DNA from: an uncultured virus (IMG/VR IMGVR_UViG_3300009161_000002)
Taxonomy: Duplodnaviria > Heunggongvirae > Uroviricota > Caudoviricetes
IMG/VR virus record: IMGVR_UViG_3300009161_000002
Strand: one strand, 5' to 3'
Length of the DNA stretch: 62,355 nucleotides
Of this stretch, positions 28,413-55,575 are shown one piece after another. The notes beneath the pieces were generated by a model. It was not told the DNA's origin. It saw only the letters and a list, made by a program, of their open reading frames with translations, and searched no databases. Positions within the stretch are counted from its first letter, which is position 1, and each line of letters begins with the position of its first letter. The position numbers were made by a program, and so were the translations under genes.

Positions 28413-29450
28413 CTAAAGAACTCTATTATTGACATTTCTATATGGACCATTTGGTGAATGACTCATAAACATATAGTAATATTTACCATACATTGCTTTT
28501 CTATTAGTCCACCACATTTCTTTCATCTCTCTAAAGTTTGGAGTATTAACAAGACTAAGTGCATTATTTCTTGCAGGTTTTAATCTTGATTCTACAAGCT
28601 GTAATCTTTGAGATACATCTTCTCCATTTAAAAATAGATTTTCAAGTATTCTAGACTTCAATGCATACTCATAATATTCATTCAATAAATCATGATCAGG
28701 AACCATTAAGTTACCATTGTCATCAGTAAGATCTCCTTGATAATTTAAATATACTTTACCAGATTCAAAAGTTGTATTTAAAAATCCATATTTAATCCAA
28801 CCTTCATTAGGTGTATTAAAATATAAGTTAGGACAATCACACTCAATCTCCTGACTTGTTTTCATTCTTAAAGGAGTTAAAGCCGTATACTGTCTTGTAG
28901 TAGTTGAATTAATAACTTGAATAAGTTCCCATTTCTCTCCTTTACAGTTCATGAATACTCTTGGAGCAATACATGTATTACCATAAGGATTTAATGGATC
29001 ATATTCTGTAGGAATTGGATCTACTATAGGGTGGTTTAGGTCACAGGCAGCTGTATGATTACATGGGTTTGAATTACATGTTCTACAGTTTACAGTTTCA
29101 ATAGCACATACATCTACATTTCCTGGTACTTCTTGATAACGTACTTCTTGCATGTTAGTACCACCGGCCATACCATCATAGCCAACAATCTCCTTAAAGT
29201 TCCCACATATCATGGCAAAGTTAAAAGTGTAAAAATCATCAGGTAGTTTTACCTTATGATGACACACATCTAGAATAACTTCCTTAGTCTGATTAATTCT
29301 AAGACCTAAATCATAATTAATCTTCTTAGCTAATTTGATAAGCTGTTGTGGCTCAATCATATTCTCAAGAGCAAATGTATTTAAGTCAATAGTAACATCT
29401 TCCAGCAACTGGTCAAATGTTCTATATTTTAAAGTGTAGTTAAAGTCCAT
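28413..29450 (-). CDS. Tail tubular / ring protein with Cys-rich insertion
   Basis: VKLPDDF, FESGKVYLNYQG...DNG..MVPD and helical C-terminus; directly upstream of the muzzle gene as in crAss-like phages. Confidence 0.65.
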   Translation of the reverse strand: MDFNYTLKYRTFDQLLEDVTIDLNTFALENMIEPQQLIKLAKKINYDLGLRINQTKEVILDVCHHKVKLPDDFYTFNFAMICGNFKEIVGYDGMAGGTNMQEVRYQEVPGNVDVCAIETVNCRTCNSNPCNHTAACDLNHPIVDPIPTEYDPLNPYGNTCIAPRVFMNCKGEKWELIQVINSTTTRQYTALTPLRMKTSQEIECDCPNLYFNTPNEGWIKYGFLNTTFESGKVYLNYQGDLTDDNGNLMVPDHDLLNEYYEYALKSRILENLFLNGEDVSQRLQLVESRLKPARNNALSLVNTPNFREMKEMWWTNRKAMYGKYYYMFMSHSPNGPYRNVNNRVL

Positions 29451-30112
29451 TATCTTAATGCATTTTGACTATCGTCCGGTCCATCTGTTGGAACTTGTAT
29501 AGCCATAGTTAATTCTTTTACAACAAATTGCTCTATCTCAGAAAATAAGTATTCAGGAAAAGGTAATGGATTGTCTTGTCTAATTAAACAAGCATCACTT
29601 TCACATGTGTCAACAGCTCCTTCAAAAATAGCTTCCATTCTAATAGCATCCCAATCTACATTAGGACAATAGATATATCCATTAAGAAACCAGAAGTATT
29701 GTTTTCTATTATATTTAAATGTTGTTGATTTTGTAATTGATACCCATGTACCCGGATCTGTACGGAACATTTCTATAGATCCATCTATAGAAGATACTGT
29801 ACGTATAATAGGACCCATTGCACCATCAAAAATTGTAGGAAGTTTATCTTTAGATCTTTTAAAATAACATTCAGAGTATACACCAATACAACTAGCTTCT
29901 ACTTTATCTACGTCAATTAACTCAATATAAGGAAGCACATTAAAGATAGAACTTATCTTCATCAATCTAAATTGATTATCTTCCCTCTTCAAAAGAGTTT
30001 GTCCATATTTTATCATGGAATAATAAATGGTTCTATCAGTTAGAAATGCATCTTCCTTTACGGCTTTTAATGTATTTCTAACTCTTGATATAGCTTCTCC
30101 AATTGTTGTCAT
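29450..30112 (-). CDS. Ring / head-tail connector protein
   Basis: LTDR.IY, KYNRKQYFWFLNGYIY, IRMEAIFE, C-terminal PTDGPDD; crAss-like ring protein pattern; coupled by TAATG/ATGA overlaps. Confidence 0.6.
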   Translation of the reverse strand: MTTIGEAISRVRNTLKAVKEDAFLTDRTIYYSMIKYGQTLLKREDNQFRLMKISSIFNVLPYIELIDVDKVEASCIGVYSECYFKRSKDKLPTIFDGAMGPIIRTVSSIDGSIEMFRTDPGTWVSITKSTTFKYNRKQYFWFLNGYIYCPNVDWDAIRMEAIFEGAVDTCESDACLIRQDNPLPFPEYLFSEIEQFVVKELTMAIQVPTDGPDDSQNALR

Positions 30113-30690
30113 ATCTCAAATTCATTATAATTTTCTAAAGCTTTTTTATTTACTTTATTTAAATGATCTCTATAAATTACACTATTATAAACTTTATCTA
30201 TTTTTGCTTTTGGTAATACTTGTAAATACATATTCCAATTATCAGGATATGACTTAGCTACAGCTCTTTTAAATTCTCTGCATGCAGTAAAACTCCAAAA
30301 TTCTCTATTCTTCATTTTGTGTTTAGGTGCATAGTTTGTAAAAAAGATTTTGGCTAGTTTACCATCTGTGTCCCAGTTTTTATTGCTTACTTGTATTCCA
30401 TATTTATTTGATTTAGCAAAATCAATATTATCTTTTTTACTTCTTTGACAAGTACCAATAAATAACCAACCTATCTGTTCAGGTAATTGGACACCATCCC
30501 TTGTATCAATCACTGTTTGATATAATACTTGGTTAAATCTTTTAATGATTTTTCTAAGTATTTTACTATCCAGATCCTTATATTTAGGATATGTTTTTTT
30601 AAAGTTATCAAAGAACTCTTTGTTCAAAATAGTGCATACTTCAGGTCTATACCTAGAAGCATTTAAGTTAGGTTTGTTAAATTCCCTCAT
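30109..30690 (-). CDS. Divergent IHF/HU-like DNA-binding protein (crAss-like)
   Basis: Helix pair (LRKIIKRFNQVLYQTV) then GVQLPEQIGWLFI beta segment and WSFTACREFKR; basic; conserved position among ring genes. Confidence 0.55.
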   Translation of the reverse strand: MREFNKPNLNASRYRPEVCTILNKEFFDNFKKTYPKYKDLDSKILRKIIKRFNQVLYQTVIDTRDGVQLPEQIGWLFIGTCQRSKKDNIDFAKSNKYGIQVSNKNWDTDGKLAKIFFTNYAPKHKMKNREFWSFTACREFKRAVAKSYPDNWNMYLQVLPKAKIDKVYNSVIYRDHLNKVNKKALENYNEFEI

Positions 30691-30693
30691 AAT

Positions 30694-30704
30694 AATATAC
30701 TAAA
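30694..30704 (-). promoter_or_regulatory. Conserved promoter-like motif TTTAGTATATT
   Basis: Follows a terminator; 3 nt before the ATG at 30690. Confidence 0.6.
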
Positions 30705-30730
30705 AATAATTGACATTAGCAAATGTAACT

Positions 30731-30760
30731 AAAAAACAAAGCCCCTGCAAGTGCAGAGGC
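30731..30760 (-). terminator. Rho-independent terminator
   Basis: Minus strand GCCTCTGC-ACTT-GCAGGGGC followed by TTTGTTTTTT. Confidence 0.8.
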
Positions 30761-30800
30761 AATGTCTTTGTTGTTACAGGTAACCAACAAACCGTAACTT
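30731..30800 (-). ncRNA. Candidate 3'-UTR small RNA (hairpin with UUGUUGGUU loop plus terminator)
   Basis: Stem GTTAC-GGT / ACC-T-GTAAC (30773-30798) with a 9-nt loop complementary to AACCAACAA at four gene starts; inferred only. Confidence 0.4.
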
Positions 30801-30814
30801 CTTATAAAATTTTT

Positions 30815-32608
30815 TTAACCTACTCTTCTAATAGCCCAATCTATATTATCACCAAGAGTACGTTGTTCAGTATAAGCCACACCTGTTAAATTTTGTATTT
30901 TTAATACTATTTGAGTTCCTACAGATATAGGTACACCTTGCATACCACCTGTCATATAAATTTTATCATAATAAAAACTTTGTACAGCAGTAAAAGTATC
31001 TGCACAATAAATAATTGCTGCACCTGTTGGATCTGTTATACCAATAGTAAAAGTTCCTCCTACTTCACCCCATCCATATGTATTTGCAGGTGAACTTAAA
31101 TATACATTATAACTTAAATCATATTTGCCTGTTTGAGGACATGTCCAAACTCCAGTAATTTGATTATATTGTGAAGTAACATTTACTCCATTTTCTATTT
31201 CATATTGTATAACACCATTAGTAGTATCAAATACTACAGTAGTACCTAAAGAAATATTTGAATTAAATTTATTAAAAGTTAAACTAGGAAAACTATCAGG
31301 GCTAATATAACCTCTAAAAGCTGTACCAAATAAACCTGCAGTAGTTTCAATAACATTTCCTAAAGCAGTTGTAGATAAATTATATGCAGGGATACCTGTA
31401 AAAGTTCCTGTACCATAATTATTTAAAAGCAATTGTCCAGTACTTTGTAAAGTTAGTTGATCTTCAGGATCTACAATTCCAGTTGGTTTACCTTGAATTA
31501 TAAATGTAGAAGACATTGAACTTTCACTTGTATTATTAGTTTTTCTAGATATTATTCTATTTGTAATATATGCATTACTATTTCCAGCTGAAATAGTATT
31601 TCCAAACTCTATTGATACTCCTGATCTAGAAGAACCATTATCTGTACTTCCTAATCTTAAAGCAATTGAATTTGTTGGTCCAGCTGCAGAACTTGTTGAA
31701 GTTTCAATATATACAGCAGGAACAGCACTTATTGGAGATACTGAATTTTCTAAATTATTACGTCCTTTAGCTCCTATAGCTTGAGATCCTATTAATCCTC
31801 CTGACTGACACACAACATCTACTACAGGTGATAAAAAACCAGTTGTAGTAGATTTTGCAGAAATAGCTTGAGCAGTAGTTGCTGCAGGATTTACATCTAA
31901 TGTAAAACCAGAAGCAGAAGTTCTTTGTAATGCTAATGCAGGTACTGTAGTACTATTTATATTTAAAGCAAATGTAGAATTAGTAATAGTTGTATTTTGA
32001 ATTAAAGGTCCACCTAATTGTACATTATTTGAAGTGGGACTCATTGTAAGTCCGTTATTTGCTGTTGTATTTGTAATATGATCACAAAAATAATTTACTA
32101 TATCTTCTAAAGCTTGATTAATACTAGAATCTTGTTGCACAACAGTATCTGCTCCACATAATAGAAGTGGAATTGGTGTTGAACAAAAGTAAGAAACTAT
32201 ATCTTCAAGTGCTTCATTAATACTTGAATCTTCAGTAACAACAATATCTTCTCCACATAAAATTTCTGGTATAGGAGGTAAACAAAAATAAGAAACAATA
32301 TCTTCTAAAGCTTCATTTATACTAGAGTCTTCTGCAACTACTATATCATCATTACAAGTAATTTCTGGTATAGGCGGCAAACAAAAGTAATCTACAATAT
32401 TAGTAATTGCAGCTTCCATGTTTGTATCTGTAGGAACTACTAAATCCTCATTACATAAAATATCACCTCCGGTATACATAATACATTGTGCATACTGAAT
32501 CTCAGCACACTCTTCAAAAGGACATCCTATTGCAGTAGGACATGGAGGAGGGGTAGTTAAATAACTATCCTCACATCCACACTTTGCACACTTGTTATTA
32601 ATGCTCAT
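30815..32608 (-). CDS. Tail fibre-like protein with 33-aa Cys repeats and C-terminal C1q/TNF-like head
   Basis: Four tandem C..D.VV..DSSINEALEDIV.YFC repeats, Ser/Thr-rich beta region, YNQITGVWTCPQTGKYDLSYNV C1q-like motif. Confidence 0.7.
   Translation of the reverse strand: MSINNKCAKCGCEDSYLTTPPPCPTAIGCPFEECAEIQYAQCIMYTGGDILCNEDLVVPTDTNMEAAITNIVDYFCLPPIPEITCNDDIVVAEDSSINEALEDIVSYFCLPPIPEILCGEDIVVTEDSSINEALEDIVSYFCSTPIPLLLCGADTVVQQDSSINQALEDIVNYFCDHITNTTANNGLTMSPTSNNVQLGGPLIQNTTITNSTFALNINSTTVPALALQRTSASGFTLDVNPAATTAQAISAKSTTTGFLSPVVDVVCQSGGLIGSQAIGAKGRNNLENSVSPISAVPAVYIETSTSSAAGPTNSIALRLGSTDNGSSRSGVSIEFGNTISAGNSNAYITNRIISRKTNNTSESSMSSTFIIQGKPTGIVDPEDQLTLQSTGQLLLNNYGTGTFTGIPAYNLSTTALGNVIETTAGLFGTAFRGYISPDSFPSLTFNKFNSNISLGTTVVFDTTNGVIQYEIENGVNVTSQYNQITGVWTCPQTGKYDLSYNVYLSSPANTYGWGEVGGTFTIGITDPTGAAIIYCADTFTAVQSFYYDKIYMTGGMQGVPISVGTQIVLKIQNLTGVAYTEQRTLGDNIDWAIRRVG
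32084..32464 (-). repeat. Four tandem 99-bp (33-aa) intragenic repeats
   Basis: EITCNDDIVVAEDSSINEALEDIVSYFCLPPIP-type unit, aa 49-175 of 30815..32608. Confidence 0.9.
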
Positions 32609-32619
32609 TATATTTTATA

Positions 32620-34332
32620 TTAGGATGGTACACATGGTGTTGGTGTTGGTATAGGATCAGCACAAGGACTTATATATGTTGAATATGGATCTAATTTAAT
32701 CCAGCCAAAACCACCAACTTGTTCTTTATCAGATGCTTGACAAGTAAATGGAAAAGTATATGTATCACCTGATACGAGCTCTACTCCATATTGTAACTGT
32801 AGAGATTGTAAGCCAGATGCTGGTGAACTATTCATTACACTAGTTGCATCTCTATAAAAAGGAACATACTCACCTGTTTGTACATTTGAAATAAGATTAT
32901 TTGCTAATGATGTTCCATAAATATTACCTGTAATACTAGATGCTGACTGTTCAATATCTTCTACTAATTGAAAAGCTAATTTTTTATCTATTGTAATTAT
33001 TGGTCTAAAAAGAGTAGTTAACATACTAGTTGTTATTGATGCAGTAGCTGATACCATTTGAATATTTCTCCAAGCCATTTCCCAATTAAATGAATAATTA
33101 TCATCAAGATTTATAGCTAATGGTAATACAGCTGCTGGAATAACAGAATTACCTTGATTAAAAACAAGTGAACCACCTGAATTAAGAACTACAGAACCTG
33201 CCCCAGTTTCTGCAGGTTTTATAGTTGTTAATGGTGCATATGTATTTATACTTGGAGCTTGATAGTCCCATACAATTGGTGCATCTGATATTGGATTTGC
33301 TAAAGGAACCATAACTATTCCTTTAAAATAAATTACATTTCCAATTCTTCTAGCTCTAGGACGTTGAGAAATAATATTTGGACCATACCACTCAAATCCA
33401 TTTAAAGGATGCCATCCAGTATCCTGTACTAAAGCAGTAAGAACATTTGAAGGAGACAATGTTAAACTAACAGTGTTTGTATCTTCTACAGTAATTGTAT
33501 TAAGGTTATCTAAAGCTTCATACATATCACATACTACTATCCAAAGATTAGTTATAGCATCTGCTACTGTTGTAGGAGTATCTACCCAAGTACCTAAATA
33601 TTCAGTTCCAAAAGGTACTGGAGGATTACTTAAAGTAGGTGTTGTAGAAGTTATACATTGCGAGGATACTGCAGAAAATAAATCGGCACCAATCCCTGTT
33701 GCATCAATTAATGAACAATATCCATTTGTAGGATCATTCACCAATGCATTTAATATTGTATCAATTGGGTATGCTGATCCACCAAGAACAGTCGGTGACA
33801 ATGTACAGGCTACAGTAATACTTGGTAATGTAAATGTTTCTTTTGGTGCATTCTCTAATACAGTTACCCTAGCATCTATATTATTAATCTGAGTCTGTAA
33901 ACCATCTATAGTTGTAATTAAGTCACAAACTCTTTCTCCAATCATTTGAACATAGTCTACTAATTGCATAGTAGTTTGTGTACCAATAATAAAACATGGT
34001 GCTATAGATACTACACAATCAGGACATGTTGATGTACTTGGATTTGTATTAGGACTAACTCCTTCTAATGCACAAATATGATTAATCAAGAATTGAATCA
34101 ATGCTTGAAAATCTACTGGTGGACATGCACTTGAATTAAAACATGTTAGATCATAATTATTTACATTAAGTTGATCTAAGATAGTACATAATTCTGCAGC
34201 CAATTTAGCAACAACATCAGATACTGTATCTCCCTTACATAATTTAATACAAGCCAAGTCTGGTCCTTGCCAAATAACACAATTACTTGACGTTGGACTA
34301 CATGGTGAGTTATCTAAATTTAACGGCTTCAT
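32620..34332 (-). CDS. Cys-rich tail fibre-like protein (570 aa)
   Basis: CVIWQGPDLAC...GDTVSDVV helical-Cys units, coiled coil (LQTQINNIDARVTVLE), DTGWH...RRIGNVIYFKG fibre-tip motif. Confidence 0.65.
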   Translation of the reverse strand: MKPLNLDNSPCSPTSSNCVIWQGPDLACIKLCKGDTVSDVVAKLAAELCTILDQLNVNNYDLTCFNSSACPPVDFQALIQFLINHICALEGVSPNTNPSTSTCPDCVVSIAPCFIIGTQTTMQLVDYVQMIGERVCDLITTIDGLQTQINNIDARVTVLENAPKETFTLPSITVACTLSPTVLGGSAYPIDTILNALVNDPTNGYCSLIDATGIGADLFSAVSSQCITSTTPTLSNPPVPFGTEYLGTWVDTPTTVADAITNLWIVVCDMYEALDNLNTITVEDTNTVSLTLSPSNVLTALVQDTGWHPLNGFEWYGPNIISQRPRARRIGNVIYFKGIVMVPLANPISDAPIVWDYQAPSINTYAPLTTIKPAETGAGSVVLNSGGSLVFNQGNSVIPAAVLPLAINLDDNYSFNWEMAWRNIQMVSATASITTSMLTTLFRPIITIDKKLAFQLVEDIEQSASSITGNIYGTSLANNLISNVQTGEYVPFYRDATSVMNSSPASGLQSLQLQYGVELVSGDTYTFPFTCQASDKEQVGGFGWIKLDPYSTYISPCADPIPTPTPCVPS

Positions 34333-34349
34333 ACTTTTTCTATTAATAT

Positions 34350-34359
34350 AATATACAAA
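34350..34359 (-). promoter_or_regulatory. Conserved promoter-like motif TTTGTATATT
   Basis: Intergenic, upstream of 34332. Confidence 0.65.
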
Positions 34360-34365
34360 TAATTA

Positions 34366-37323
34366 TTAAGAATTGCAAGTATTGCATCCACAATCATTAG
34401 GTTGACCACAACCACAACTATTTGCAGGGGCACATATGTAATCCGGATTATACAATGCTGCTAAATCTATTAATTCCTTTTTAACCAACCAATACTCATC
34501 TTCTTCAGGACAACAGTTTGATATTCCATATCTTAATTCAAGAACTTGTCTGTACAAAATTTGTGATGATCTACATGAAATCTCTTCATATTTCTCTGCA
34601 CTACAAGCCGGTGTATTATAACCAGGTTTGATTCCTCTTTTAGGATATATTGGAGCAGGACATACTCCATTGTTACAGTCTCCAAAGTATTGGTAAAAAC
34701 TTTGACATGATACTGTTGATATTACGGTAGGAGTTTCTTGAGGAATGCTTGAAAAAGGTTTCCAAATTCCTGAAGGACAATCAGATTTTGATGGAGGTAA
34801 ATAGTACTGTGGTTCTTCCGCAGAATTGTTCATAATCCATTGAGTACCATTATAATAAATATATAATGATCCCCCTGGAAATGCATCCCAAGAATTTTTA
34901 AAATTAATTAAAGTACCTGATGCATTTAATACAGTACTAGTTACACTAGATCCAATAGTTACTGTTCTAATTAAACAGTCACATCCTTCTGGTTCTAACC
35001 ATTTAATTAAACAAATCTTAGGACTTGTCTCTCCTGGTTGTACAGTGACTGCTACAGTATCCCCATAACAATTAATGTAGTCATATGTATAAGCAATTGT
35101 ATTATCATTTCTTACATTAGAACAAATACATGGTGCTGTTGTAGCACAAGTAACACAATTGTTATAAGAATTAGTTACTGTAACAATACTTGGATTAATA
35201 GGAATTATAACTAACTCAACCTCATAACAACCATCACAGTTAGCAAGATTTACAACCTGACCTATATATTGACTTATGTCAGTAAAAGTATCTATTGTTT
35301 CATCTGTATTACATTCAGTTAATCTATAGTAAGGTCTTTCACATGAAACACAATCAATAAAAGATGTAATAATAACTATTGTTTGTATAGATGGTGGTGC
35401 ATAGTTAATTAGTTCTACTATAAAACAACCACAATCTGTTAACAAAGTTTGATCTACATACTGTGATAAATCATCATAAGTATATTGAGTATTAAATGAT
35501 TCATTACAACTTGTTAGTTTATAAGCAATTATTTCCTTACATTCTTCACAAGTACTAGTATTAAATACTACACGTACATCAATTGCACAATCACAATCTT
35601 CTTCAGTAATTTCTACTAACCAACATTCTGTATAACCAGCAATTTTTATTACATCTTGATTTATAGCATGTGGTAGTAAAACAAATGAAGTGCTAAAAAG
35701 AATATTTAATGGATCCTCACAATCTATAAGCTTATAACATTTTGGAGGACAATCATTGTCAATACAATCTCCTTGTGGACTTATCGTGTAATCAGTTGAT
35801 GTATTTCCAACAATAGGATATATTTTAGAACATAGTGTTAACCATGGTTGTGTAGCAGCTGGTGTAATCTGTAATAACTGATCTTCATTATCAATATATT
35901 GAACATAAGTAATTCCTTGAGCTCCTTCAATAAAGTAACAAATTGTATCACAATCACATGTAATGTCACCGTCAATAATTACCTCAACACCATTTTCACA
36001 AGTTGTTTCATCTTCTTGTAGAACAACATAAACACAACCAGTAAATTCACCATAAGTAACAGATACAAATTCATTAACATAATTTTCTAAATTAGCTGTA
36101 ATGCTTATAAATGGAGGAGTTATACCATCACATGGAATTAATAAATAACATGCACATTCTAAAAGAAATCTAGTTTCAATTGTACATACAGGAACACCTA
36201 AACATTCATTTAAAGTATATCCTTCAGGACATTCCCAAACACCAGGAGTACTTGGATTAGGAACATTTAGTCCAATCATATCTTCAGTTGAAAATATAAT
36301 ATATGGTTCTAAATTTGCAATTGTATTACCACAGTTTCCTGCACCTAATGCAGGAAATGTAAGAGTAGATTGGAAAGTTGCAAGATCAATATCATATATT
36401 TCACCAGCAAAAGCACCAGGTGTGTTACCTACATTTATACCACCAAGTCTTATAACATGTGTACCTGCAGTTAATGTAATAGGAAATACATGCCACCAAT
36501 TAAAAGGTGCCGTACCACTAGCTCCCCCTACATTTAAAAATACATTTAATACACCATCAACATAAAGTTTAACTTTATTATCTCCAGCTATTCCAACAAG
36601 ATATTGTTTTGTTTCTGCAATTTCTATACAATACTCAAAACTTAATTCAGGACCATCTCCTGTAGTTACATTATAAGCAGTATTCCATAAACCTGTAATA
36701 TTTAATCGTCCCCCATAACTACTTGTGGGACCAGTAAATGTTGAACAAGCTGTAGGTGTTTCACATCCCCATAATGTGGACTGTACTCCTGATATAAGAG
36801 GAGTAATAGTAGCTCCGGCACCATTATTAGCTTTTACTAAATATGGATTTCCACTACCAAGAAGTGGTTTAACACTAGCTGTAATATCTGGATAAAGTCT
36901 TAAACCAAATTTATTAAATGATATCTGATTAGCTGCAGCATTAAGTTGTACTGTAGTACCAGTATAAGTAGCTTCTATAATAACTGTTTCAACACACTCC
37001 CCATCTATTTCTACATATCCTTCCGGACACTCACAAGTTATGACTGTACATGGTGCACACTTTGGATCATCACATGTGGTTACATATTGCAATTGAACAC
37101 TTGGTGGTGCAGCAGGATATAAAACAGGTGTTTGACTTATAAGTGATTCTATAACATAACAGAAGTCCGGTTCTAATGAACCACCACTTCCTACAAAAGG
37201 AGTAGTACCTGAAAAAGTATAAATATTACCAGATGTAATAGTAAGACTTCCTGTAAAATAAATTACAGAGTCATCACAACATTTTGTAAATTTATAATAA
37301 GGATATAATGTTGTTACACTCAT
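34366..37323 (-). CDS. Cys-rich structural protein (fibre/tail hub-associated, 985 aa)
   Basis: Repeated Y.L..C...C..V...C..C units, EGF-like CECPEGYVEIDGEC, a GIAGDNKVKLYVDG beta-sandwich (PA14/lectin-like) insert, helical C-terminus. Confidence 0.55.
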   Translation of the reverse strand: MSVTTLYPYYKFTKCCDDSVIYFTGSLTITSGNIYTFSGTTPFVGSGGSLEPDFCYVIESLISQTPVLYPAAPPSVQLQYVTTCDDPKCAPCTVITCECPEGYVEIDGECVETVIIEATYTGTTVQLNAAANQISFNKFGLRLYPDITASVKPLLGSGNPYLVKANNGAGATITPLISGVQSTLWGCETPTACSTFTGPTSSYGGRLNITGLWNTAYNVTTGDGPELSFEYCIEIAETKQYLVGIAGDNKVKLYVDGVLNVFLNVGGASGTAPFNWWHVFPITLTAGTHVIRLGGINVGNTPGAFAGEIYDIDLATFQSTLTFPALGAGNCGNTIANLEPYIIFSTEDMIGLNVPNPSTPGVWECPEGYTLNECLGVPVCTIETRFLLECACYLLIPCDGITPPFISITANLENYVNEFVSVTYGEFTGCVYVVLQEDETTCENGVEVIIDGDITCDCDTICYFIEGAQGITYVQYIDNEDQLLQITPAATQPWLTLCSKIYPIVGNTSTDYTISPQGDCIDNDCPPKCYKLIDCEDPLNILFSTSFVLLPHAINQDVIKIAGYTECWLVEITEEDCDCAIDVRVVFNTSTCEECKEIIAYKLTSCNESFNTQYTYDDLSQYVDQTLLTDCGCFIVELINYAPPSIQTIVIITSFIDCVSCERPYYRLTECNTDETIDTFTDISQYIGQVVNLANCDGCYEVELVIIPINPSIVTVTNSYNNCVTCATTAPCICSNVRNDNTIAYTYDYINCYGDTVAVTVQPGETSPKICLIKWLEPEGCDCLIRTVTIGSSVTSTVLNASGTLINFKNSWDAFPGGSLYIYYNGTQWIMNNSAEEPQYYLPPSKSDCPSGIWKPFSSIPQETPTVISTVSCQSFYQYFGDCNNGVCPAPIYPKRGIKPGYNTPACSAEKYEEISCRSSQILYRQVLELRYGISNCCPEEDEYWLVKKELIDLAALYNPDYICAPANSCGCGQPNDCGCNTCNS

Positions 37324-37325
37324 AA

Positions 37326-37511
37326 TTACTTTTTATTATATCTATTTAGACCCGATGTTTTTGGTTCTGCACTTTTAATTGTATCTGTTAATACCTTAAT
37401 AGAATTCTCATAACTTTGTATACAATTCTTACATACAAATACTCCGTTAGTAGCTTTTTTCTTTTGGCATCCACAAGACAACGTTGCTTTGCAATTTGGA
37501 CATGCACTCAT
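37326..37511 (-). CDS. Small Zn-finger protein (61 aa)
   Basis: CPNC...SCGC...CKNC; A-rich leader containing AACCAACAA. Confidence 0.7.
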   Translation of the reverse strand: MSACPNCKATLSCGCQKKKATNGVFVCKNCIQSYENSIKVLTDTIKSAEPKTSGLNRYNKK

Positions 37512-37532
37512 TTTTGTTGGTTTTTAAATTAT

Positions 37533-38075
37533 TTAACAATTTACACAACTCATTTTTTTCAAGAGTTTCATTGCATAGTTGTACAAGCTCATTCCTTTCT
37601 GAGGCTCGTGACATGTTTCTACTTTTGATATTGCAGCTTGAAGATACATGAAAATTAATCTCAATGCTTCTAACTTTTCTTTGATTACAAAAGGAGGATC
37701 ACATGCATTTACATCTACTTGACATAAAACTTTGTTGTATAGGTTTAATGCTTTTGATATTCTTAAATGATTGTACTCTACGTACACTTGATCATTTGGA
37801 GATACACTATATTTAATTATGTAAATTCCATCTGGAATATCTACATAACTTGTACCACAGTCTGCTGTTTGTAAGCCTAAGTCACAAGCAGTCAAGTTCT
37901 GAATAAAACCTGAACTAACAGGTAATTCAACAGAGTAATTGAAACCTGGCACTGTAATAGCCAATGTTTCACATACAACTGGAATTAGATCTGTGTAAAC
38001 ACTAGTATCCATAACAGTTAATATACATGTATTTAAAACTGTAGGTACTTCTAAACTTAAGACGTGATTTGCCAT
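37533..38075 (-). CDS. Structural protein, probable tail hub-type (180 aa)
   Basis: Ig-like N-half (DTSVY, ITVPGF, IPDGIYIIKYSV) plus helical C-half; follows the auxiliary capsid gene as in crAss-like phages. Confidence 0.5.
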   Translation of the reverse strand: MANHVLSLEVPTVLNTCILTVMDTSVYTDLIPVVCETLAITVPGFNYSVELPVSSGFIQNLTACDLGLQTADCGTSYVDIPDGIYIIKYSVSPNDQVYVEYNHLRISKALNLYNKVLCQVDVNACDPPFVIKEKLEALRLIFMYLQAAISKVETCHEPQKGMSLYNYAMKLLKKMSCVNC

Positions 38076-38085
38076 AGTGTATAAT

Positions 38086-38124
38086 AAAAAAAGGGGAAAG
38101 GAGTTTAGAACTCTTCTCCCCTTT
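38086..38124 (-). terminator. Rho-independent terminator after auxiliary capsid gene
   Basis: Minus strand GGGGAGAAGAGTT-CTA-AACTCCTTTCCCC followed by a T-tract. Confidence 0.8.
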
Positions 38125-38149
38125 ATGTTTTTAAATTTGAGTTACTTGA

Positions 38150-39832
38150 TTAGTTACAAGAAACTACATTGTACGGATTGTATACTGGAATTGCTGGGAA
38201 GTTAACTGGAACATTACATTCAGTTATACATGCAAATGCATCATCAATTTCACAAACTCCACACCCGTCTAACCAATTTGTTACATTAGTATCAAATGTA
38301 GTTAATGCACCAAGTGAATAAATTTGCAATAAGTATTGGTCATTATCAAATGTTCCAGATGGATTATTAAAACGAGGTACACTATGTAAAATATTATATC
38401 TGTAGTACAATCCATTTCTGTCAATTGAATTAACAATTTGATTTCCTTGAGTAATCTCACGGATACGTAAGTCTGTAGCCAAGAAGTTTTGTCTGTAAGA
38501 TTCTGACATAGTCAATTCTCTTAAAACTGTTTCTCCTAAACCTTGAACTTGTAAACCTTCACACTCAGTAACAACACATAAAGTTGTAAATGTACATGGA
38601 TCACCTGTTAAGTCAACTTCTGATGCATACAATCTAACTGGCTCAACTTCATAGAAGTCAGTCAATTGGAATGTACAATCACCAAATTTAGTATCAACAT
38701 AAGCTCCGTTTAAGATTAAACCAGCACATTCTCCATCTGTATGACCAGCAGATACATAGTTATTCCAAGTATCAGCACCATTAGCAGCTAAGAAAGTTGC
38801 AGATGTTCCTGGTGCATACCAAAGAGTACCATCTTCTGCTTGTACAACAACTTGTACAAAAGGAGATACAATTGGATTGTTAGTAATTCCATTTGCCCAT
38901 AAGATCATTACTTCAGTTGAGTCAACTGCAGTTGGAGCAATACTAGCTGGATCACAACATCCTGTGTAAGCATCAACAGTATTATATGCATTGTGATCTA
39001 AGAATCTTAGTGCAGGAGAACCTTTAATGTCTAAACGTAGACTGTATGTTTCACCACATAAATATTCTTTACAACAATCTGGAGAAATTCCACATCCTGT
39101 TTGAGCATGAGAATCAGTTACAGTAAGAATTGTAACAATTGCATTTCCAGCTGCACCAGATGCATAAGGAATAGTAACTGTATCACCTACAGCATATCCT
39201 TTTCCTGGATTAATAATAGTAACTGAACTATTACTTACTTTACCACCAGAAGTAGTATTATAAGAAATTACTAAACCTTGTCCTGTTCCTGTAGTAGTAA
39301 CTGGAGCAGCAACAACACCTGTTGCTGATGTAGCATATAATGTGTTAGTTCCTGTAACAGTAGTGTTTACTGTTAAAATACCACCACCTGCAGTCCAGTA
39401 AGTAGAACCTACGTGAATTACATTGTTCTGTGGTTCACATGGAGCTACTGTGTAGTATCTAGATACATACTTAGGGTTAATCATTTTAGACTTGTTAGTC
39501 TCAATGTAACCACCTGCTAAAGGACCAATTTTGTCATTTGCAAAAATTGCTGAACCAGCAAGATATACATTACAACATTCTGTTGGAGTAATAGTCAAGT
39601 TAGTTTTTGGATCAAAGATACCAATGTATCCTGTCTCTGAAGCAGGTTGAGTTAAAGCTGCATTAGCTTTTAACTGATTTAACCCATAAGTTGGAACACC
39701 ATTTGTAGTTACATAACCACCAGCAGTAGTTGTAGCAATAGTGCTCCCGTCAGGGAAAGTAACAGCATAAGCTGTTTGTGTGACCCCGGATGCTAGGAAT
39801 GCTTTTTGAAAAGCATGATTAAAATAAGCCAT
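38150..39832 (-). CDS. Auxiliary capsid / decoration protein (560 aa)
   Basis: Thr/Gly/Ala-rich, KSKMINPK and CGETYSLRLDIKG motifs, inserted beta module (INPGKGYAVGDTVTI); own promoter motif and terminator suggest high expression; synteny with crAss-like genes. Confidence 0.55.
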   Translation of the reverse strand: MAYFNHAFQKAFLASGVTQTAYAVTFPDGSTIATTTAGGYVTTNGVPTYGLNQLKANAALTQPASETGYIGIFDPKTNLTITPTECCNVYLAGSAIFANDKIGPLAGGYIETNKSKMINPKYVSRYYTVAPCEPQNNVIHVGSTYWTAGGGILTVNTTVTGTNTLYATSATGVVAAPVTTTGTGQGLVISYNTTSGGKVSNSSVTIINPGKGYAVGDTVTIPYASGAAGNAIVTILTVTDSHAQTGCGISPDCCKEYLCGETYSLRLDIKGSPALRFLDHNAYNTVDAYTGCCDPASIAPTAVDSTEVMILWANGITNNPIVSPFVQVVVQAEDGTLWYAPGTSATFLAANGADTWNNYVSAGHTDGECAGLILNGAYVDTKFGDCTFQLTDFYEVEPVRLYASEVDLTGDPCTFTTLCVVTECEGLQVQGLGETVLRELTMSESYRQNFLATDLRIREITQGNQIVNSIDRNGLYYRYNILHSVPRFNNPSGTFDNDQYLLQIYSLGALTTFDTNVTNWLDGCGVCEIDDAFACITECNVPVNFPAIPVYNPYNVVSCN

Positions 39833-39866
39833 TTTTTCTAAGTTTTAATTTATAAATATATACTAT

Positions 39867-39877
39867 AATATACAAAA
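39867..39877 (-). promoter_or_regulatory. Conserved promoter-like motif TTTTGTATATT
   Basis: Upstream of the auxiliary capsid gene. Confidence 0.65.
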
Positions 39878-39896
39878 AGTTTTTTAAATAACAAAA

Positions 39897-40415
39897 TTAT
39901 TTTAAGAAAAGAAGTTTATACTTAGTTGATGTAATAGACTCTTTAACTAAATCTAAATTATTAACAATCTCAGAGTAAGGCATCATGCCTTGTAGTTTGT
40001 TAATTATGTTATACATATCTCTTAGATATGCAACACCATCTGCTACAGTATCAAGAGTTCTAATAGGCATGTCAGAGTAAGTTAAAATCTTTTCTGTTAC
40101 ACCTTGGTATCCCTCTACTAAAGTATCTGCATGATCATGAAGACCTTGATAAAATGGATTAAGTGCTGTATGTGCTGCAAAGGATCCATCTCCCTTAACT
40201 TTTAAGTGAAGTCTATGAAAACTGATTGCAGCATTCATCATCTCTGTTGCACAAGCTGATGTCATAGTATCTAACGAACTACCACCAACTCCAGTACTTG
40301 GAGTAGGTTGTGGTTTAGCTGGTTCACTCTTAGGTTGTGTTACAGTAACTTCTGGTCTACTAACAGTTTTTGTAGGTTCATTAGTTCTTTTTAACAATCT
40401 AGGTTTTGCCTCCAT
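39897..40415 (-). CDS. Dps/ferritin-like protein
   Basis: HRLHL...SFAAHTALNPFY...HADTLVEGYQG and C-terminal TKYKLLFL; four-helix ferritin-like pattern after a Pro/Thr-rich N-terminus. Confidence 0.8.
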   Translation of the reverse strand: MEAKPRLLKRTNEPTKTVSRPEVTVTQPKSEPAKPQPTPSTGVGGSSLDTMTSACATEMMNAAISFHRLHLKVKGDGSFAAHTALNPFYQGLHDHADTLVEGYQGVTEKILTYSDMPIRTLDTVADGVAYLRDMYNIINKLQGMMPYSEIVNNLDLVKESITSTKYKLLFLK

Positions 40416-40422
40416 TTTTTAT

Positions 40423-41121
40423 TTAGTTATTTCGTTCTGCAGCTTCTTGACTTCTTGAAAATTGATTTCCTGATTCAATGTCTCCAGCCATTATACTTAC
40501 TGCTTCATCTATTATTACTTCTATGATATCATCTTTAAATTCAGATTGTACTTCTACTGTAGAGATAAGTCCGGTGTAGGGATCAGAACAATCTTTAATT
40601 TGAATTTTTCTTGGTTGTCTGTAGTATGTAAGATATGCATCTTCAACATCAAACTCATTGTTAGTGTAAATATTTAGATCATTGTTTATCAATGTAGCAA
40701 ATGTTTCACCCCACTCAAAGTTTGGTTGTTTAGATTTATCTCTTAATAGTTGACTTAAGTTTCCTTCTTCTCCTAAATAAACAGTCATCCTTCTACTATC
40801 ACAACAATCTTTTTTAGCAAAAGCATCTACTCTTTTCCACTGTAAATAGTTATCAGGAAGATCTGCAAAATAATAGTCTGTTTTTTTTGTAGTAACAATA
40901 GGTTCTTTAATCAGAAGTTTTTGTAAATCATCCTTTCTTCTATTGGATTGTTCATCACCTTCCTTAACCACATTAATACCATGAAGCTGTCTTCTTACCC
41001 ATTCTACCTGAGCTTTATTAAAAGACTCAACTACTTGCCAGCAGGTTATGTTGTCATAGTCCTGACTGTCCAGCTTGTTAAGCCTTTGCTTCATCTTTAT
41101 GGTTATCGTACTATTTAACAT
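40423..41121 (-). CDS. Ring / head-tail adaptor protein (crAss gene 74-like)
   Basis: LNKLDSQDY...FNKAQ, R.DDLQKL, LPDNYL, YLTYYRQP, EVIIDEAV. Confidence 0.65.
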   Translation of the reverse strand: MLNSTITIKMKQRLNKLDSQDYDNITCWQVVESFNKAQVEWVRRQLHGINVVKEGDEQSNRRKDDLQKLLIKEPIVTTKKTDYYFADLPDNYLQWKRVDAFAKKDCCDSRRMTVYLGEEGNLSQLLRDKSKQPNFEWGETFATLINNDLNIYTNNEFDVEDAYLTYYRQPRKIQIKDCSDPYTGLISTVEVQSEFKDDIIEVIIDEAVSIMAGDIESGNQFSRSQEAAERNN

Positions 41122-41124
41122 CTC

Positions 41125-41586
41125 TTATTTCTTTTTGGACTTTACAGAACCACCTTTTTTTTGTTTAATAATACTATCCATTATAGGTGTATTAGACTTT
41201 GGTTTATTAGTTATAGAATCCATTTGAGTTTTGTACATTTCCTGTGACATAGCTGATTTTTTTGCATTACTATATTTATCTCTAGCTTGTTGTACAATAG
41301 TTTGTTTATCTAAATAATCCATTCTAGGATTATTAGGAGCAGAAGATGTAGATTGAGTCTTATCAAGAATTGATTGGTTCACAGTATCTACATTACTTCT
41401 ATTATTTGTATTTAATATACCATCTTTATTAATAGAATAGTATCGAGCTTCACGAATAGCATCTGCTACAGCAGGTACAACAATACCATTTCTAGCTTTA
41501 GTTAAAGAGTTTTTTACAACCTTTTGTCTAGCCTCATTTGCTTTTCTAAAAAAAGTTAATGGGTTTTCCTTATTAGTCTTTTTCAT
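41125..41586 (-). CDS. Basic hypothetical virion protein (153 aa; start codon uncertain)
   Basis: Lys-rich termini, KARNG and KQKKGG motifs. Confidence 0.65.
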   Translation of the reverse strand: MKKTNKENPLTFFRKANEARQKVVKNSLTKARNGIVVPAVADAIREARYYSINKDGILNTNNRSNVDTVNQSILDKTQSTSSAPNNPRMDYLDKQTIVQQARDKYSNAKKSAMSQEMYKTQMDSITNKPKSNTPIMDSIIKQKKGGSVKSKKK

Positions 41587-41587
41587 T

Positions 41588-41743
41588 TTATTTGTTTTTT
41601 GCCATTGCTTTAAAAGTTCTTGCCAAAGCTTTTCTCTTTGGAGTACATGTAGGTTTTGACATAGGAGTACAATAACCTTTATGTTTAGGGTTGACTGCTT
41701 TTTGAATCCACTTCTTATCAGTTTTTTTCTTTGCAGTAGCCAT
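41588..41743 (-). CDS. Small basic protein (51 aa)
   Basis: Not in track: MATAKKKTDKKWIQKAVNPKHKGYCTPMSKPTCTPKRKALARTFKAMAKNK; fills the gap between neighbours with 1-2 nt spacers. Confidence 0.75.
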   Translation of the reverse strand: MATAKKKTDKKWIQKAVNPKHKGYCTPMSKPTCTPKRKALARTFKAMAKNK

Positions 41744-41745
41744 GA

Positions 41746-41988
41746 TTACTTTTTCTTTGCATTTCTTTTTGCACCAGTAATAATATCTGCTCTTGTAATT
41801 TTATTTTTTGGAGCAGCTAATGCAGCTAACTTAGCACGTTTTGAAACAGTACCACCTTTTTTCATCATTCCATTTTTACCATCTGTTTGACCAGCACCAG
41901 CAGCATAAGGAATACCAGCAGCTATTGAACCACCTTTTGCCATTTTCTTTTTTATAGTGGGTCCACCACAACTCATACAATTACCCAT
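41746..41988 (-). CDS. Small basic protein (80 aa)
   Basis: CMSC, MAKGG and MKKGG motifs, KLAALAAPKNKITRADII. Confidence 0.7.
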   Translation of the reverse strand: MGNCMSCGGPTIKKKMAKGGSIAAGIPYAAGAGQTDGKNGMMKKGGTVSKRAKLAALAAPKNKITRADIITGAKRNAKKK

Positions 41989-42007
41989 GATATTTTATTT
42001 TTAAAAG

Positions 42008-42280
42008 TTAACAATTCCATTTTCTTAAAGCAAGAGTCTTTCTTGTAGGCTCTCCATTTGGTTTTTTTGCAGGACCAGGCATACCAGACATTCTTGCACA
42101 AAAACTTTTTCTTCTCTTTGCTGCTTTGCCATTTGGATCCAACTTAGATGGCTTAGTAGTAACTGCCATCTTAAGTTTAGATCCCGGATTAGCTGCTCTA
42201 TAACTGGCTACTCCCTTTGCATTTAAACCTCCGGTTTTATTTTTACCTTCTTTTCTAGTCCAAGCTGCTGTCTTTGCCAT
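42008..42280 (-). CDS. Small basic protein, DUF6321-like (90 aa)
   Basis: WTRKEGK...GGLNAKG..SY...NPGSKLK...RRKSFCARM...LALRKWNC pattern known from aquatic phages. Confidence 0.7.
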   Translation of the reverse strand: MAKTAAWTRKEGKNKTGGLNAKGVASYRAANPGSKLKMAVTTKPSKLDPNGKAAKRRKSFCARMSGMPGPAKKPNGEPTRKTLALRKWNC

Positions 42281-42291
42281 AACTTTTTATT

Positions 42292-43239: not shown

Positions 43240-43241
43240 AA

Positions 43242-43382: not shown

Positions 43383-43387
43383 TTTTT

Positions 43388-43561: not shown

Positions 43562-43573
43562 TTTATCTTTGTT

Positions 43574-44590: not shown

Positions 44591-44634
44591 TTTGTTTGTT
44601 GGTTTTAAATTATTAAGTTTTGTATTCTAAAAGT

Positions 44635-44668: not shown

Positions 44669-44680
44669 TATGTTGTCTGG

Positions 44681-46297: not shown

Positions 46298-46325
46298 TTT
46301 TTATTTTGTTTTTATTTGTTACTAA

Positions 46326-47582: not shown

Positions 47583-47607
47583 TCTTGTTGGTTTTATGTT
47601 ATACTTT

Positions 47608-55291: not shown

Positions 55292-55575
55292 TAGCCTCTT
55301 CTTAATTTTTTACCTGCTGCCGGTGCTTTCTTTTCAGTAGGTTCATTTTCTAATTCTTCTTGTTCCATCTCTTGTTGAGCAGCCATCATGTTAGCATATT
55401 GGAATTGCATAGTTGCTCTTTTGTATCTTGCCTCTTCTACATCAGTAAGTAATTTCTCATACTTAGCTTGTGATTCAAGATACGGAATAGATGACTCATA
55501 AAAATTCTTCATTTCTAATCTTCTAGCTTCTAACTGTTCTGCAGTTAATTGCTCTTCTTGTTGTTGGTTTTCCAT
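55291..55575 (-). CDS. Hypothetical coiled-coil protein (94 aa)
   Basis: First gene after a promoter motif; helical Q/E-rich. Confidence 0.7.
   Translation of the reverse strand: MENQQQEEQLTAEQLEARRLEMKNFYESSIPYLESQAKYEKLLTDVEEARYKRATMQFQYANMMAAQQEMEQEELENEPTEKKAPAAGKKLRRG

What the first reader, a model, noticed from the sequence alone, without database searches (positions are those of the whole stretch)
30731..30800. Hairpin RNA whose loop is antisense to a motif at four translation starts
Seen: downstream of the fibre gene the minus-strand RNA folds GUUAC-GGU[UUGUUGGUU]ACC-U-GUAAC and is followed by an intrinsic terminator. The complement AACCAACAA lies 2-4 nt before the ATG of the scaffold (47585-47593), gene-75-like (44594-44604, 11-nt match) and Zn-finger (37513-37522, 10-nt match) genes, and in the first codons of the gene starting at 55575 (55561-55569). 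I saw no other copies by eye (not exhaustive). Inference: a 3'-UTR-derived trans-acting sRNA controlling translation of assembly genes. Alternatively AACCAACAA is a protein-bound translational operator and the hairpin is related to it.
Basis: partly seen in the sequence, partly recalled or inferred. Interest (0 to 1): 0.75.

Follow-up and report, generated by a model that had tools for sequence, protein, structure and literature searches.

The report
Phage RNA hairpin mirrors start-codon boxes
Behind its tail-fibre genes this uncultured crAss-like phage keeps a small RNA hairpin whose loop is the exact mirror of a short box placed just before the start codons of several virion genes, and relatives change loop and boxes together, so the two most likely pair to control how much of these proteins is made.

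Summary
Minus-strand RNA 30798-30773 folds into a hairpin with loop UUGUUGGUU, followed by a strong intrinsic terminator (30760-30731). Its complement, as the 11-mer AAAACCAACAA, occurs four times on the coding strand, always at a start codon.

In relatives (IMG/VR contigs, 25-86% protein identity) both features persist. There is one hairpin plus terminator per genome, with a covarying, G·U-rich stem. The box sits 1-4 nt before the ATG of the same three gene families.

Loop and boxes change together. L042 has loop G->U with C->A in all three boxes. GG-type loops go with AAACCAACC boxes. This favours RNA-RNA pairing over chance or a DNA operator.

The best reading is a 3'UTR-borne antisense RNA that occludes the translation start regions of a small virion-gene regulon.

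Not shown: a discrete transcript, and the direction or size of any effect.

Caveats: the farthest clade pairs only weakly. A cultured cyanophage (Lbo-JY46) keeps the hairpin but has no boxes.

There is no Rfam family, and my paper searches found no description. This scan noted the same element earlier on another genome (e1-6072892).

The parts
30773..30798 (-). Seed hairpin: 5' arm 30798-30791, loop UUGUUGGUU 30790-30782, 3' arm 30781-30773 with U30778 bulged
   Evidence: loop unpaired probability 0.93. Stem covariation in 44 homologues. R1 hit at 81.2 bits.
30767..30772 (-). Conserved AACAA(A) just after the hairpin, complementary to loop UUGUU; possible pseudoknot or self-mimic, role unknown
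   Evidence: 5 pairs, 95.3% of cells paired in 44 sequences, no change on both sides. The loop side is almost invariant (2 of 44 sequences differ in these pairs).
30731..30760 (-). Intrinsic terminator: stem-loop 30760-30741 plus U-tract 30740-30731
   Evidence: 8 pairs, 6 G-C, T tail. Covarying stem in relatives (helix 3: 3 pairs with changes on both sides).
30815..32608 (-). Upstream ORF (597 aa, fibre position) whose 3'UTR carries the element; this gene varies among relatives
   Evidence: upstream sequences differ while the element is kept. No family hit.
47585..47595 (-). Box 1, AAAACCAACAA, ending 2 nt before the ATG (47582) of the 418-aa gene between portal and major capsid protein
   Evidence: Duplex with the loop -11.9 kcal/mol. 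Orthologous boxes in relatives.
44594..44606 (-). Box 2, AAAACCAACAAAC, ending 3 nt before the ATG (44590) of the 338-aa gene after the major capsid protein; 11 nt pair with the loop
   Evidence: Duplex -15.8 kcal/mol, the best of 44 genes. Orthologous boxes.
37513..37524 (-). Box 3, AAAACCAACAAA, ending 1 nt before the ATG (37511) of a 61-aa Zn-ribbon-like protein
   Evidence: Duplex -12.2 kcal/mol. Weak Zn_ribbon_Elf1 hit, E 0.0014, below the cut-off.
55561..55571 (-). Box 4, AAAACCAACAA, inside codons 2-5 of the 94-aa ORF starting at 55575
   Evidence: Duplex -11.2 kcal/mol. A like box sits in a 101-aa ORF of G003.
30694..30704 (-). Promoter-like TTTAGTATATT before the next gene (ATG 30690); part of the conserved hairpin-terminator-promoter block
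   Evidence: block conserved in relatives. (8 copies on the coding strand, 0 on the other, shuffles mean 0.6).

Best explanation
The roughly 65-nt 3' end of the tail-fibre operon transcript (seed hairpin, short spacer, terminator) is a regulatory RNA. Its exposed loop (family consensus UUUGUUGGUUU) base-pairs with an A/C-rich box (AAACCAACAAA). That box sits within about 15 nt of the start codon of a few virion-gene mRNAs.

The box-bearing genes are the 418-aa gene between portal and capsid, the 338-aa gene after the capsid gene, a 61-aa Zn-ribbon gene, and in this phage a 94-aa ORF.

These leaders carry no Shine-Dalgarno sequence and are short. An 8-12 bp duplex abutting the AUG should therefore block 30S loading, so that translation of these genes falls as the late fibre operon is transcribed.

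Shown here: the conserved structure, the coding-strand origin, one copy per genome, the box position, and loop-box co-variation.

Inferred: that pairing occurs in vivo, that the RNA accumulates (as a processed 3'UTR fragment or within the full mRNA), and that the outcome is repression rather than stabilisation or activation.
For: (1) Structure. In 44 aligned elements, 16 pairs are 94.5% paired against 87.7% in shuffles. Seven pairs change on both sides (53 cells against 7.0). 0 of 500 shuffles reach this, and slid controls give 39-54%. 53 of 308 hairpin-stem cells are G·U, which would be A·C on the other strand, so the RNA is read from the coding strand.

(2) One copy per genome. R1 scores 53-98 bits in 62 of 81 sources, once each. 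It gives 1 hit in each of 5 of 5 near-complete genomes. In 10 of 10 more distant records searched whole, a best hit turned up at 27-45 bits. The sequences were printed for all ten; I read nine as hairpin plus terminator and did not judge the tenth (L206).

(3) Box position. In 61 non-redundant sources (1.23 Mb), AACCAACAA occurs 160 times on the coding strand. Of these, 126 lie within -24..+12 of an ORF start, mostly 1-4 nt before the ATG. The 84 same-composition permutations have median 20 occurrences and 1.5 near starts.

(4) Co-variation. L042 has loop GUUUUUUGGUUUU and all 3 boxes AAAACCAAAA(AA). Its own loop gives -11.0 against -6.3 kcal/mol for the canonical loop, and the reverse comparison gives -7.5 against -10.8/-12.0. 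Genomes with GGUUGGUU loops have AACCAACC boxes 7 times against 14 AACCAACA. Genomes with UGUUGGUU loops have 6 against 157.

(5) Core substitutions. Substitutions in the box core are mostly wobble-compatible: C->T in 19 of 27, and 15 of 19 at the C opposite loop G4.

(6) Ranking in the window. The four box genes are the four best of 44 start regions (-15.8 to -11.2, median -5.75). 6 of 300 shuffled loops match the count.

(7) Leaders. Only 1 of 44 genes has an SD-like motif. Box unpaired probability is 0.56-0.79 and loop 0.93.
Against: - No transcript ends, abundance or strand could be seen. RNA runs were available only as contigs.
- Over all 11 box positions, only 40 of 183 substitutions are wobble-compatible. 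Positions 1-2 and 9-11 vary freely, so the constrained duplex is about 8 bp.
- A position-wise permutation test was significant only at box position 8 (0 of 1000). It was not significant at 9-11 (anchoring imperfect).
- L127, L130, L138 and L142 have GG-type loops, but their boxes are still AAACCAACAA or AAACCAAUAA.
- In the farthest clade (L196 type) predicted pairing is weak: -6.5 kcal/mol, and the genome's own loop ranks last of 11.
- Leptolyngbya phage Lbo-JY46 keeps the hairpin (37.4 bits, loop UUUGUUGGUUG) but shows no boxes at the orthologous starts and no enrichment (3 start regions at or below -9 against a shuffled mean of 5.0). The loop may therefore have an older or additional role.
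- The co-variation rests on few independent lineages.
Confidence: 0.58

Rival explanations
1. The pairing is real, but its purpose is positive or neutral for expression. The duplex could protect the very short 5' leaders from 5'-end-dependent decay. Alternatively, it could tether or activate translation rather than repress it.
For: The boxes sit in short leaders just downstream of promoter-like motifs. Box genes are needed in quantity late, at the same time as the fibre operon. Nothing computed here fixes the sign of the effect.
Against: The leaders are predicted open, with unpaired probability 0.56-0.79 and no inhibitory structure to relieve. Boxes abut or overlap the first codons. From general knowledge of sRNA action, recalled here, pairing at that place blocks 30S binding.
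Confidence: 0.2
2. The hairpin's primary job is something else at the operon junction. It could be a protein-binding or processing/stability element, or a modulator of the adjacent terminator, as with boxB or put. Box complementarity would then be a lineage-specific add-on or of minor effect.
For: The hairpin, terminator and promoter are conserved as one block while the upstream gene varies. Lbo-JY46 keeps the hairpin without boxes. The farthest clade pairs weakly. A conserved AACAA after the hairpin can pair with the loop.
Against: This does not explain why 3 of 3 boxes changed with the loop in L042, or why CAACC boxes go with GG loops. No protein partner is identified. The 13-nt spacer leaves terminator folding independent of the hairpin.
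Confidence: 0.15
3. Box and loop are one double-stranded DNA site in two orientations. A phage DNA-binding protein (an operator or late-gene regulator) binds it, and RNA pairing is irrelevant.
For: A dsDNA site reads the same in either orientation, and co-evolution of all copies with one protein would also give joint changes (L042).
Against: The inverted copy alone is framed by a covarying stem rich in G·U (53 of 308 cells), which has meaning only in coding-strand RNA. Box position is tied to the ATG (1-4 nt) and boxes also occur inside the first codons, not at a fixed distance from promoter-like motifs. Boxes drift C->U (15 of 19 substitutions at that position). No loop type listed has A at the facing position, and apart from L042's compensated G->U it stays G. 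RNA wobble predicts this asymmetry.
Confidence: 0.05
4. Chance resemblance between an ordinary 3' hairpin and A/C-rich leaders typical of hosts without Shine-Dalgarno sequences.
For: The motif was chosen post hoc. Other leaders in the window are also A/C-rich, and two non-box genes reach -10 kcal/mol.
Against: The 11-mer occurs 4 times at starts and nowhere else in the window. Both features are conserved across dozens of diverged genomes, with co-variation.
Confidence: 0.01

Closest known systems
3'UTR-derived base-pairing small RNAs of bacteria (CpxQ, SroC, DapZ, MicL type; recalled from my own knowledge). One recent case seen only in a search listing/abstract: CisR, PMC13250501.
   Same: The seed lies upstream of the mRNA's own intrinsic terminator. 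A short conserved seed is complementary to translation start regions of several mRNAs.
   Different: - It is encoded by a lytic-type phage and aimed at the phage's own virion genes.
- The targets carry a dedicated, near-identical box rather than assorted partial matches.
- The seed is presented in a hairpin loop.
- No transcript or chaperone is known.
Phage P1/P7 c4 and P4 CI antisense RNAs (recalled, not checked in a call)
   Same: A phage RNA made from an operon transcript pairs through loops with repeated complementary boxes on phage mRNAs, including ribosome-binding regions.
   Different: Those control immunity or lysogeny genes in temperate phages and act on their own operon. Here the boxes are on head and tail assembly genes of a crAss-like phage. 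There is no sequence or Rfam relation.
Bacteroides sRNAs such as GibS (PMC7366714, abstract seen), and SD-less initiation in Bacteroidia (PMC6847099, PMC7797042, abstracts seen)
   Same: The setting is A-rich leaders without Shine-Dalgarno sequences (1 of 44 genes SD-like). In that setting an sRNA duplex at the start region is expected to decide 30S access.
   Different: The host of this phage is unknown; Bacteroidota is only inferred from the leaders and from TAnnTTTG-like boxes. There is no homology to those sRNAs.
T4 RegA-type translational repressors (recalled)
   Same: One phage factor recognises a short motif at the start codons of several phage mRNAs.
   Different: RegA is a protein. 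Here the recognising element is complementary RNA, as the co-variation indicates.

Membership tests
3'UTR-derived base-pairing sRNA | Lies in the 3'UTR and shares the mRNA's intrinsic terminator | tested here: met
   Stop codon at 30817-30815, hairpin 30798-30773, terminator 30760-30731. Relatives show the same layout.
3'UTR-derived base-pairing sRNA | Conserved single-stranded seed complementary to target mRNAs at their start regions | tested here: met
   The loop is nearly invariant with unpaired probability 0.93. 126 of 160 boxes lie at ORF starts.
3'UTR-derived base-pairing sRNA | Pairing supported by compensatory changes | tested here: met
   Natural variants only: L042 (3 of 3 boxes), and GG loops with CAACC boxes at 7 of 21 against 6 of 163. 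Few independent lineages. Some loop changes are uncompensated (L127, L130, L138, L142).
3'UTR-derived base-pairing sRNA | A discrete stable small transcript (processed or with its own promoter) | tested here: inconclusive
   RNA-run contigs touch the region (an X1 contig covers 30809) but cannot show ends, strand or level.
3'UTR-derived base-pairing sRNA | Measurable effect on target translation or stability | not testable with these tools
   Needs reporters or an infection experiment.
Intrinsic (Rho-independent) terminator | G+C-rich stem-loop followed by a U-tract | tested here: met
   (8 pairs, 6 G-C, T tail). The stem covaries.
Any Rfam family | Match to a curated covariance model | tested here: not met
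   window 28000-58000, E up to 1: only 4 weak chance hits elsewhere (snoRNA and lncRNA models, E 0.11-0.85) and none at 30731-30800.
P1 c4 / P4 CI-type immunity RNA | Controls immunity or lysogeny genes of a temperate phage by pairing within its own operon | tested here: not met
   The targets are virion-gene leaders, and two of them lie upstream of a terminator after the capsid gene. I saw no lysogeny genes among the ORFs scanned (20 ORFs, 13; not the whole window).
Protein-bound translational operator (RegA-like) | A protein that binds the box RNA | not testable with these tools
   No candidate identified. The box-bearing Zn-ribbon gene is only a speculation (below the cut-off).

The most novel reading that the evidence does not exclude
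The A/C-rich box is a private translation signal of this phage lineage. It would stand in for a Shine-Dalgarno sequence in an SD-blind host and mark a small regulon of virion genes. The single hairpin RNA would be its dedicated antidote or adaptor. One 11-nt loop would then set the timing or stoichiometry of head and tail assembly across a whole family of abundant freshwater crAss-like phages. The self-complementary AACAA after the hairpin would act as a built-in gate on the seed.
Probability: 0.15. Interest if true: 0.85.

Novelty: new variant of a known kind. Interest (0 to 1): 0.7.

Why it matters
crAss-like phages are among the most abundant viruses known, yet how they regulate genes after transcription is almost unknown. 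Here one conserved loop and a set of near-identical leader boxes define a small RNA regulon on assembly genes. The setting is leaders that lack Shine-Dalgarno sequences.

If the pairing works as inferred, it is a compact, natural RNA switch. Evolution has already supplied orthogonal loop/box pairs (the L042 and GG variants), which make the hypothesis directly testable. These pairs could also serve as parts for controlling translation in Bacteroidota-type systems.

The finding also gives a searchable marker (model R1) for this phage lineage.

Tried and rejected
- **RNA evidence.** The look-up of sequencing runs listed 12 metatranscriptome runs with small shares (0.05-0.19), all kept as contigs. 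I laid 4 of them on 29000-48000. Contigs cover many genes (deepest over 44.8-46.1 kb and 38.1-39.8 kb) and one reaches 30809. They cannot show ends, strand or level, so there is no verdict on a discrete RNA.
- **Rfam**: nothing at the element.
- **DNA search of the phage collection** with 30000-34000, and protein search with the 560-aa gene: no match.
- **Whole genome of the window:** none held.
- **Bacterial genomes.** The 17-mer CAGTTTGTTGGTTTCTG gave 86 places, about what I estimated for chance (my own arithmetic, no call). Of these, 80 were fetched and scanned with R1. The best scored 30.6 bits against at least 53 for true elements, so no host copy was found.
- **Automatic loop extraction** and a position-anchored permutation test were unreliable where boxes are tandem or overlapping. 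I rely instead.
- **Pseudoknot between loop and the downstream AACAA:** compatible (95.3% paired) but without covariation, so left open.
- **Labels for the box genes:** PHROGs, Pfam and the Atlas give no family. The 418-aa protein has only 0.81-0.82 leads to scaffold/capsid-assembly clusters.
- **16S rRNA mimicry** by the loop was considered but not tested. No host is known, and I did not type rRNA from memory.
- **Literature.** Searches 'crAss-like + small RNA + antisense', 'AACCAACAA', 'phage-encoded + sRNA + base-pairing + capsid', 'crAss-like + noncoding RNA' and 'Lbo-JY46' gave nothing on this element. One search failed on a term that was too long.

Full report
**What is in the window**

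All long ORFs lie on the minus strand. PHROGs names a large terminase (50426-52630), a portal (47675-50419), a major head protein (44681-46297) and several virion proteins of crAss-like type. The window has no DNA match in the phage collection. The best protein relative of its capsid gene among deposited phages is Leptolyngbya phage Lbo-JY46, at 28.6% identity over 99% of the query. Gut crAss-like phages and Cellulophaga phages follow it.

The ORF 30815-32608 ends with TAA at 30817-30815. Then come these features:
- 16 nt later, the hairpin GUUACGGU / loop UUGUUGGUU / ACC-U-GUAAC (30798-30773).
- The sequence AACAAA.
- A strong intrinsic terminator (stem 30760-30741, T-run to 30731).
- A promoter-like TTTAGTATATT.
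- The ATG of the next gene at 30690.

The 91-nt stretch folds at -28.5 kcal/mol (z -4.2, 0 of 200 shuffles as good).

AACCAACAA occurs 5 times. Four copies are on the coding strand and one is on the plus strand, which is the loop. Shuffles give a mean of 1.15, and 0 of 100 reach 5. All four coding-strand copies are the 11-mer AAAACCAACAA, which is absent from the other strand.

They end 2, 5 and 2 nt before the ATGs at 47582, 44590 and 37511. The fourth fills codons 2-5 of the ORF starting at 55575.

Taking the 12-nt loop against the -30..+20 region of 44 genes:
- The four box genes are the four best duplexes (-15.8, -12.2, -11.9, -11.2 kcal/mol; median -5.75).
- Two further A/C-rich leaders (53148, 54587) reach -10.
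- 6 of 300 shuffled loops give as many genes at or below -9.

**Relatives**

The 560-aa gene 38150-39832 has 609 confirmed relatives in IMG/VR. The best 80 loci were kept, with 10-kb flanks. Two further scans from diverged members added loci down to about 25% identity.

In 61 non-redundant sources (1.23 Mb) AACCAACAA occurs 160 times on the coding strand. Of these, 126 lie within -24..+12 of an ORF start, most of them 1-4 nt before the ATG. The 84 permutations of the same letters have a median of 20 occurrences and 1.5 near starts. The only permutations that approach the motif are its own shifted versions.

The boxes sit at the same three gene families:
- about 418 aa, between portal and capsid;
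- about 338 aa, after the capsid gene;
- about 61 aa, Zn-ribbon-like.

They are often present as two tandem copies, and sometimes lie just inside the ORF (ATGGAAGAAACCAACAAAAA).

In three whole genomes, 4 of 5, 2 of 4 and 4 of 5 coding-strand copies lie at ORF starts. The hairpin accounts for one opposite-strand copy in each genome.

**The hairpin is a conserved RNA**

Forty-four elements align over hairpin, spacer and terminator. The named structure has 16 pairs.
- 94.5% of cells are paired, against 87.7% in shuffles.
- 7 pairs change on both sides, against a mean of 2.1.
- 53 cells change on both sides, against 7.0.
- 0 of 500 shuffles reach the observed values, and partners slid by 1-3 columns give 39-54% paired.

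In the hairpin stem, 53 of 308 cells are G·U, which would be A·C on the opposite strand. The selected structure is therefore in the coding-strand RNA. The loop is nearly invariant.

A covariance model (R1) finds exactly one element of 53-98 bits in 62 of 81 sources. Of the 19 sources without one:
- 14 are cut less than 5.3 kb downstream of the query gene (table);
- 5 have full flanks, and for two of these (L046, L069) the element lies just beyond the locus.

Each of 5 of 5 near-complete genomes of 114-122 kb has one copy. Ten further records searched whole each have a best hit of 27-45 bits. The sequences were printed for all ten. I read nine as a hairpin with a GGUU-containing loop followed by a terminator, and did not judge the tenth (L206).

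The gene upstream of the element differs among relatives, while the hairpin-terminator-promoter block and the downstream gene are kept. No Rfam family matches.

**Loop and boxes change together**

L042 has loop GUUUUUUGGUUUU, a G->U change in the core. All three of its boxes read AAAACCAAAA(AA), a C->A change at the facing position, and it has no canonical box.
- L042's own loop gives -11.0 kcal/mol on its start regions, against -6.3 for the canonical loop.
- The L042 loop gives -7.5 on canonical start regions, against -10.8 and -12.0 for their own loops.

A clade with GGUUGGUU loops (U->G) carries AACCAACC boxes 7 times against 14 AACCAACA. Genomes with UGUUGGUU loops show 6 against 157. L178 (both boxes AAACCAACC, loop AAGGUUGGUUUCA) was seen by eye and is not in that count.

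Within the box core (positions 4-8), 19 of 27 substitutions are C->T. At the C facing loop G4, 15 of 19 are C->T. That keeps a G·U pair. Among the loop types listed, that G becomes U only in L042, where it is compensated, and is never A. RNA pairing predicts this asymmetry; a DNA site does not.

**Results against, or limiting**

- Taken over all 11 positions, only 40 of 183 substitutions are wobble-compatible. The flanks (1-2, 9-11) vary freely, so the constrained duplex is about 8 bp (AAACCAAC with GUUGGUUU) plus variable extensions.
- My position-wise permutation test was significant only at box position 8 (0 of 1000) and not at 9-11. Anchoring problems at tandem boxes affected it.
- L127, L130, L138 and L142 have GG-type loops with boxes still reading AAACCAACAA or AAACCAAUAA.
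- In the farthest clade (L183-L200) the boxes shrink to AAACCAA and the loop reads GAUGGUUUAUUG. Predicted pairing is weak (-6.5 kcal/mol), and the clade's own loop ranks last of 11.
- The cultured cyanophage Lbo-JY46 has a positionally equivalent hairpin plus terminator (loop UUUGUUGGUUG, R1 37.4 bits). Its scaffold-position and post-capsid genes have no box, and its start regions are not enriched for complementarity (3 at or below -9 against a shuffled mean of 5.0). The hairpin may therefore be older than the box regulon, or it may have a second role.
- The independent switches are few, and I ran no phylogeny-aware test.

**Mechanism**

The leaders of this phage lack Shine-Dalgarno-like motifs (1 of 44 genes). 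Box leaders are short, with promoter-like motifs 27-44 nt upstream of several starts, and are predicted open (unpaired probability 0.56-0.79). The loop is exposed at 0.93.

An 8-12 bp duplex abutting or overlapping the first codons should hinder 30S binding. That this is how sRNAs repress is established knowledge, recalled here. That Bacteroidia initiate without SD pairing, and are tuned by leader structure, is from the abstracts of PMC6847099 and PMC7797042.

I therefore commit to a repressing antisense RNA carried at the 3' end of the fibre operon. It acts in trans on the two head-region leaders. It possibly acts in cis on the Zn-ribbon leader, which may lie on the same long transcript; I saw no strong terminator between 39876 and 30760.

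Repression rather than stabilisation, and a processed small RNA rather than the full mRNA, are inferences.

**Comparison with known systems**

It works like a 3'UTR-derived base-pairing sRNA and, in having dedicated boxes, like the P1 c4 / P4 CI RNAs (both recalled). It is not a member of any curated RNA family.

My five paper searches found no description of it. Supplements were not consulted. I tested the claim independently here and do not count that note as support.

**Verdict**

The element is real and conserved, and most likely a new phage regulatory RNA with a small virion-gene regulon. Direct RNA and functional evidence is missing.

Noticed in passing
window 57770, 55611, 47617, 39876, 34359, 30704, 27582, 15657 (minus strand, 5' ends): Promoter-like motif TTT(A)GTATATT occurs 8 times on the coding strand and 0 on the other (shuffles mean 0.6, max 3). 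Seven copies lie 1-44 nt upstream of gene starts. It may mark the phage's transcription units.
   Followed up: partly
window 30767-30772 and the same place in 44 relatives (A1 columns 43-47): A conserved AACAA right after the hairpin is complementary to loop UUGUU (95.3% paired, no covariation). In L042 it reads AGAAA opposite the changed loop. It could be a pseudoknot or a self-mimic that gates the seed.
   Followed up: partly
L201 33666-33738 = PP438436.1 91575-91647: The cultured Leptolyngbya phage Lbo-JY46 has a like hairpin (AU stem, loop UUUGUUGGUUG) plus terminator in a 400-nt non-coding gap after another terminator. It may be a free-standing sRNA gene there. It has no boxes at the orthologous gene starts.
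   Followed up: partly
window, all 44 gene starts: Only 1 of 44 genes has GGAG, GAGG or AGGA within -20..-4. TAnnTTTG boxes precede 7 starts. Together with the A-rich leaders this suggests a host that ignores Shine-Dalgarno sequences, such as Bacteroidota. The host is not identified.
   Followed up: partly
window 53148 and 54587 leaders: Two further A/C-rich leaders (acaaaacaacaaacacaaaa..., aactaacaaaaaaacaaac...) give -10.5 and -10.0 kcal/mol with the loop. They are possible weak extra targets, or simply the general leader style.
   Followed up: no
relatives, e.g. L004 5199-5223, L038 2826-2855, L040 4139-4172: Many relatives carry two or three tandem or overlapping boxes before the 338-aa gene, spaced 8-16 nt start to start. 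Some carry a box just inside the 418-aa ORF (ATGGAAGAAACCAACAAAAA).
   Followed up: no
window 44630-44670: A terminator-like hairpin (ggggtgggtttatacctaccccattttt) follows the capsid gene and precedes the box-2 leader. The post-capsid gene therefore probably has its own transcript.
   Followed up: no
L216, L246, L273 (Gastranaerophilales-type MAG contigs): Three bacterial loci found with the 17-mer share an identical 47-nt weak R1 hit (28.9 bits). They are not the phage element. What they are was not examined.
   Followed up: no
window 38115-39815 and 44850-46270: Contigs from freshwater and lake metatranscriptome runs of two studies cover this phage or close kin at 90-99% likeness. They are deepest over the 560-aa gene and the capsid gene. 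Contigs cannot rank expression.
   Followed up: no
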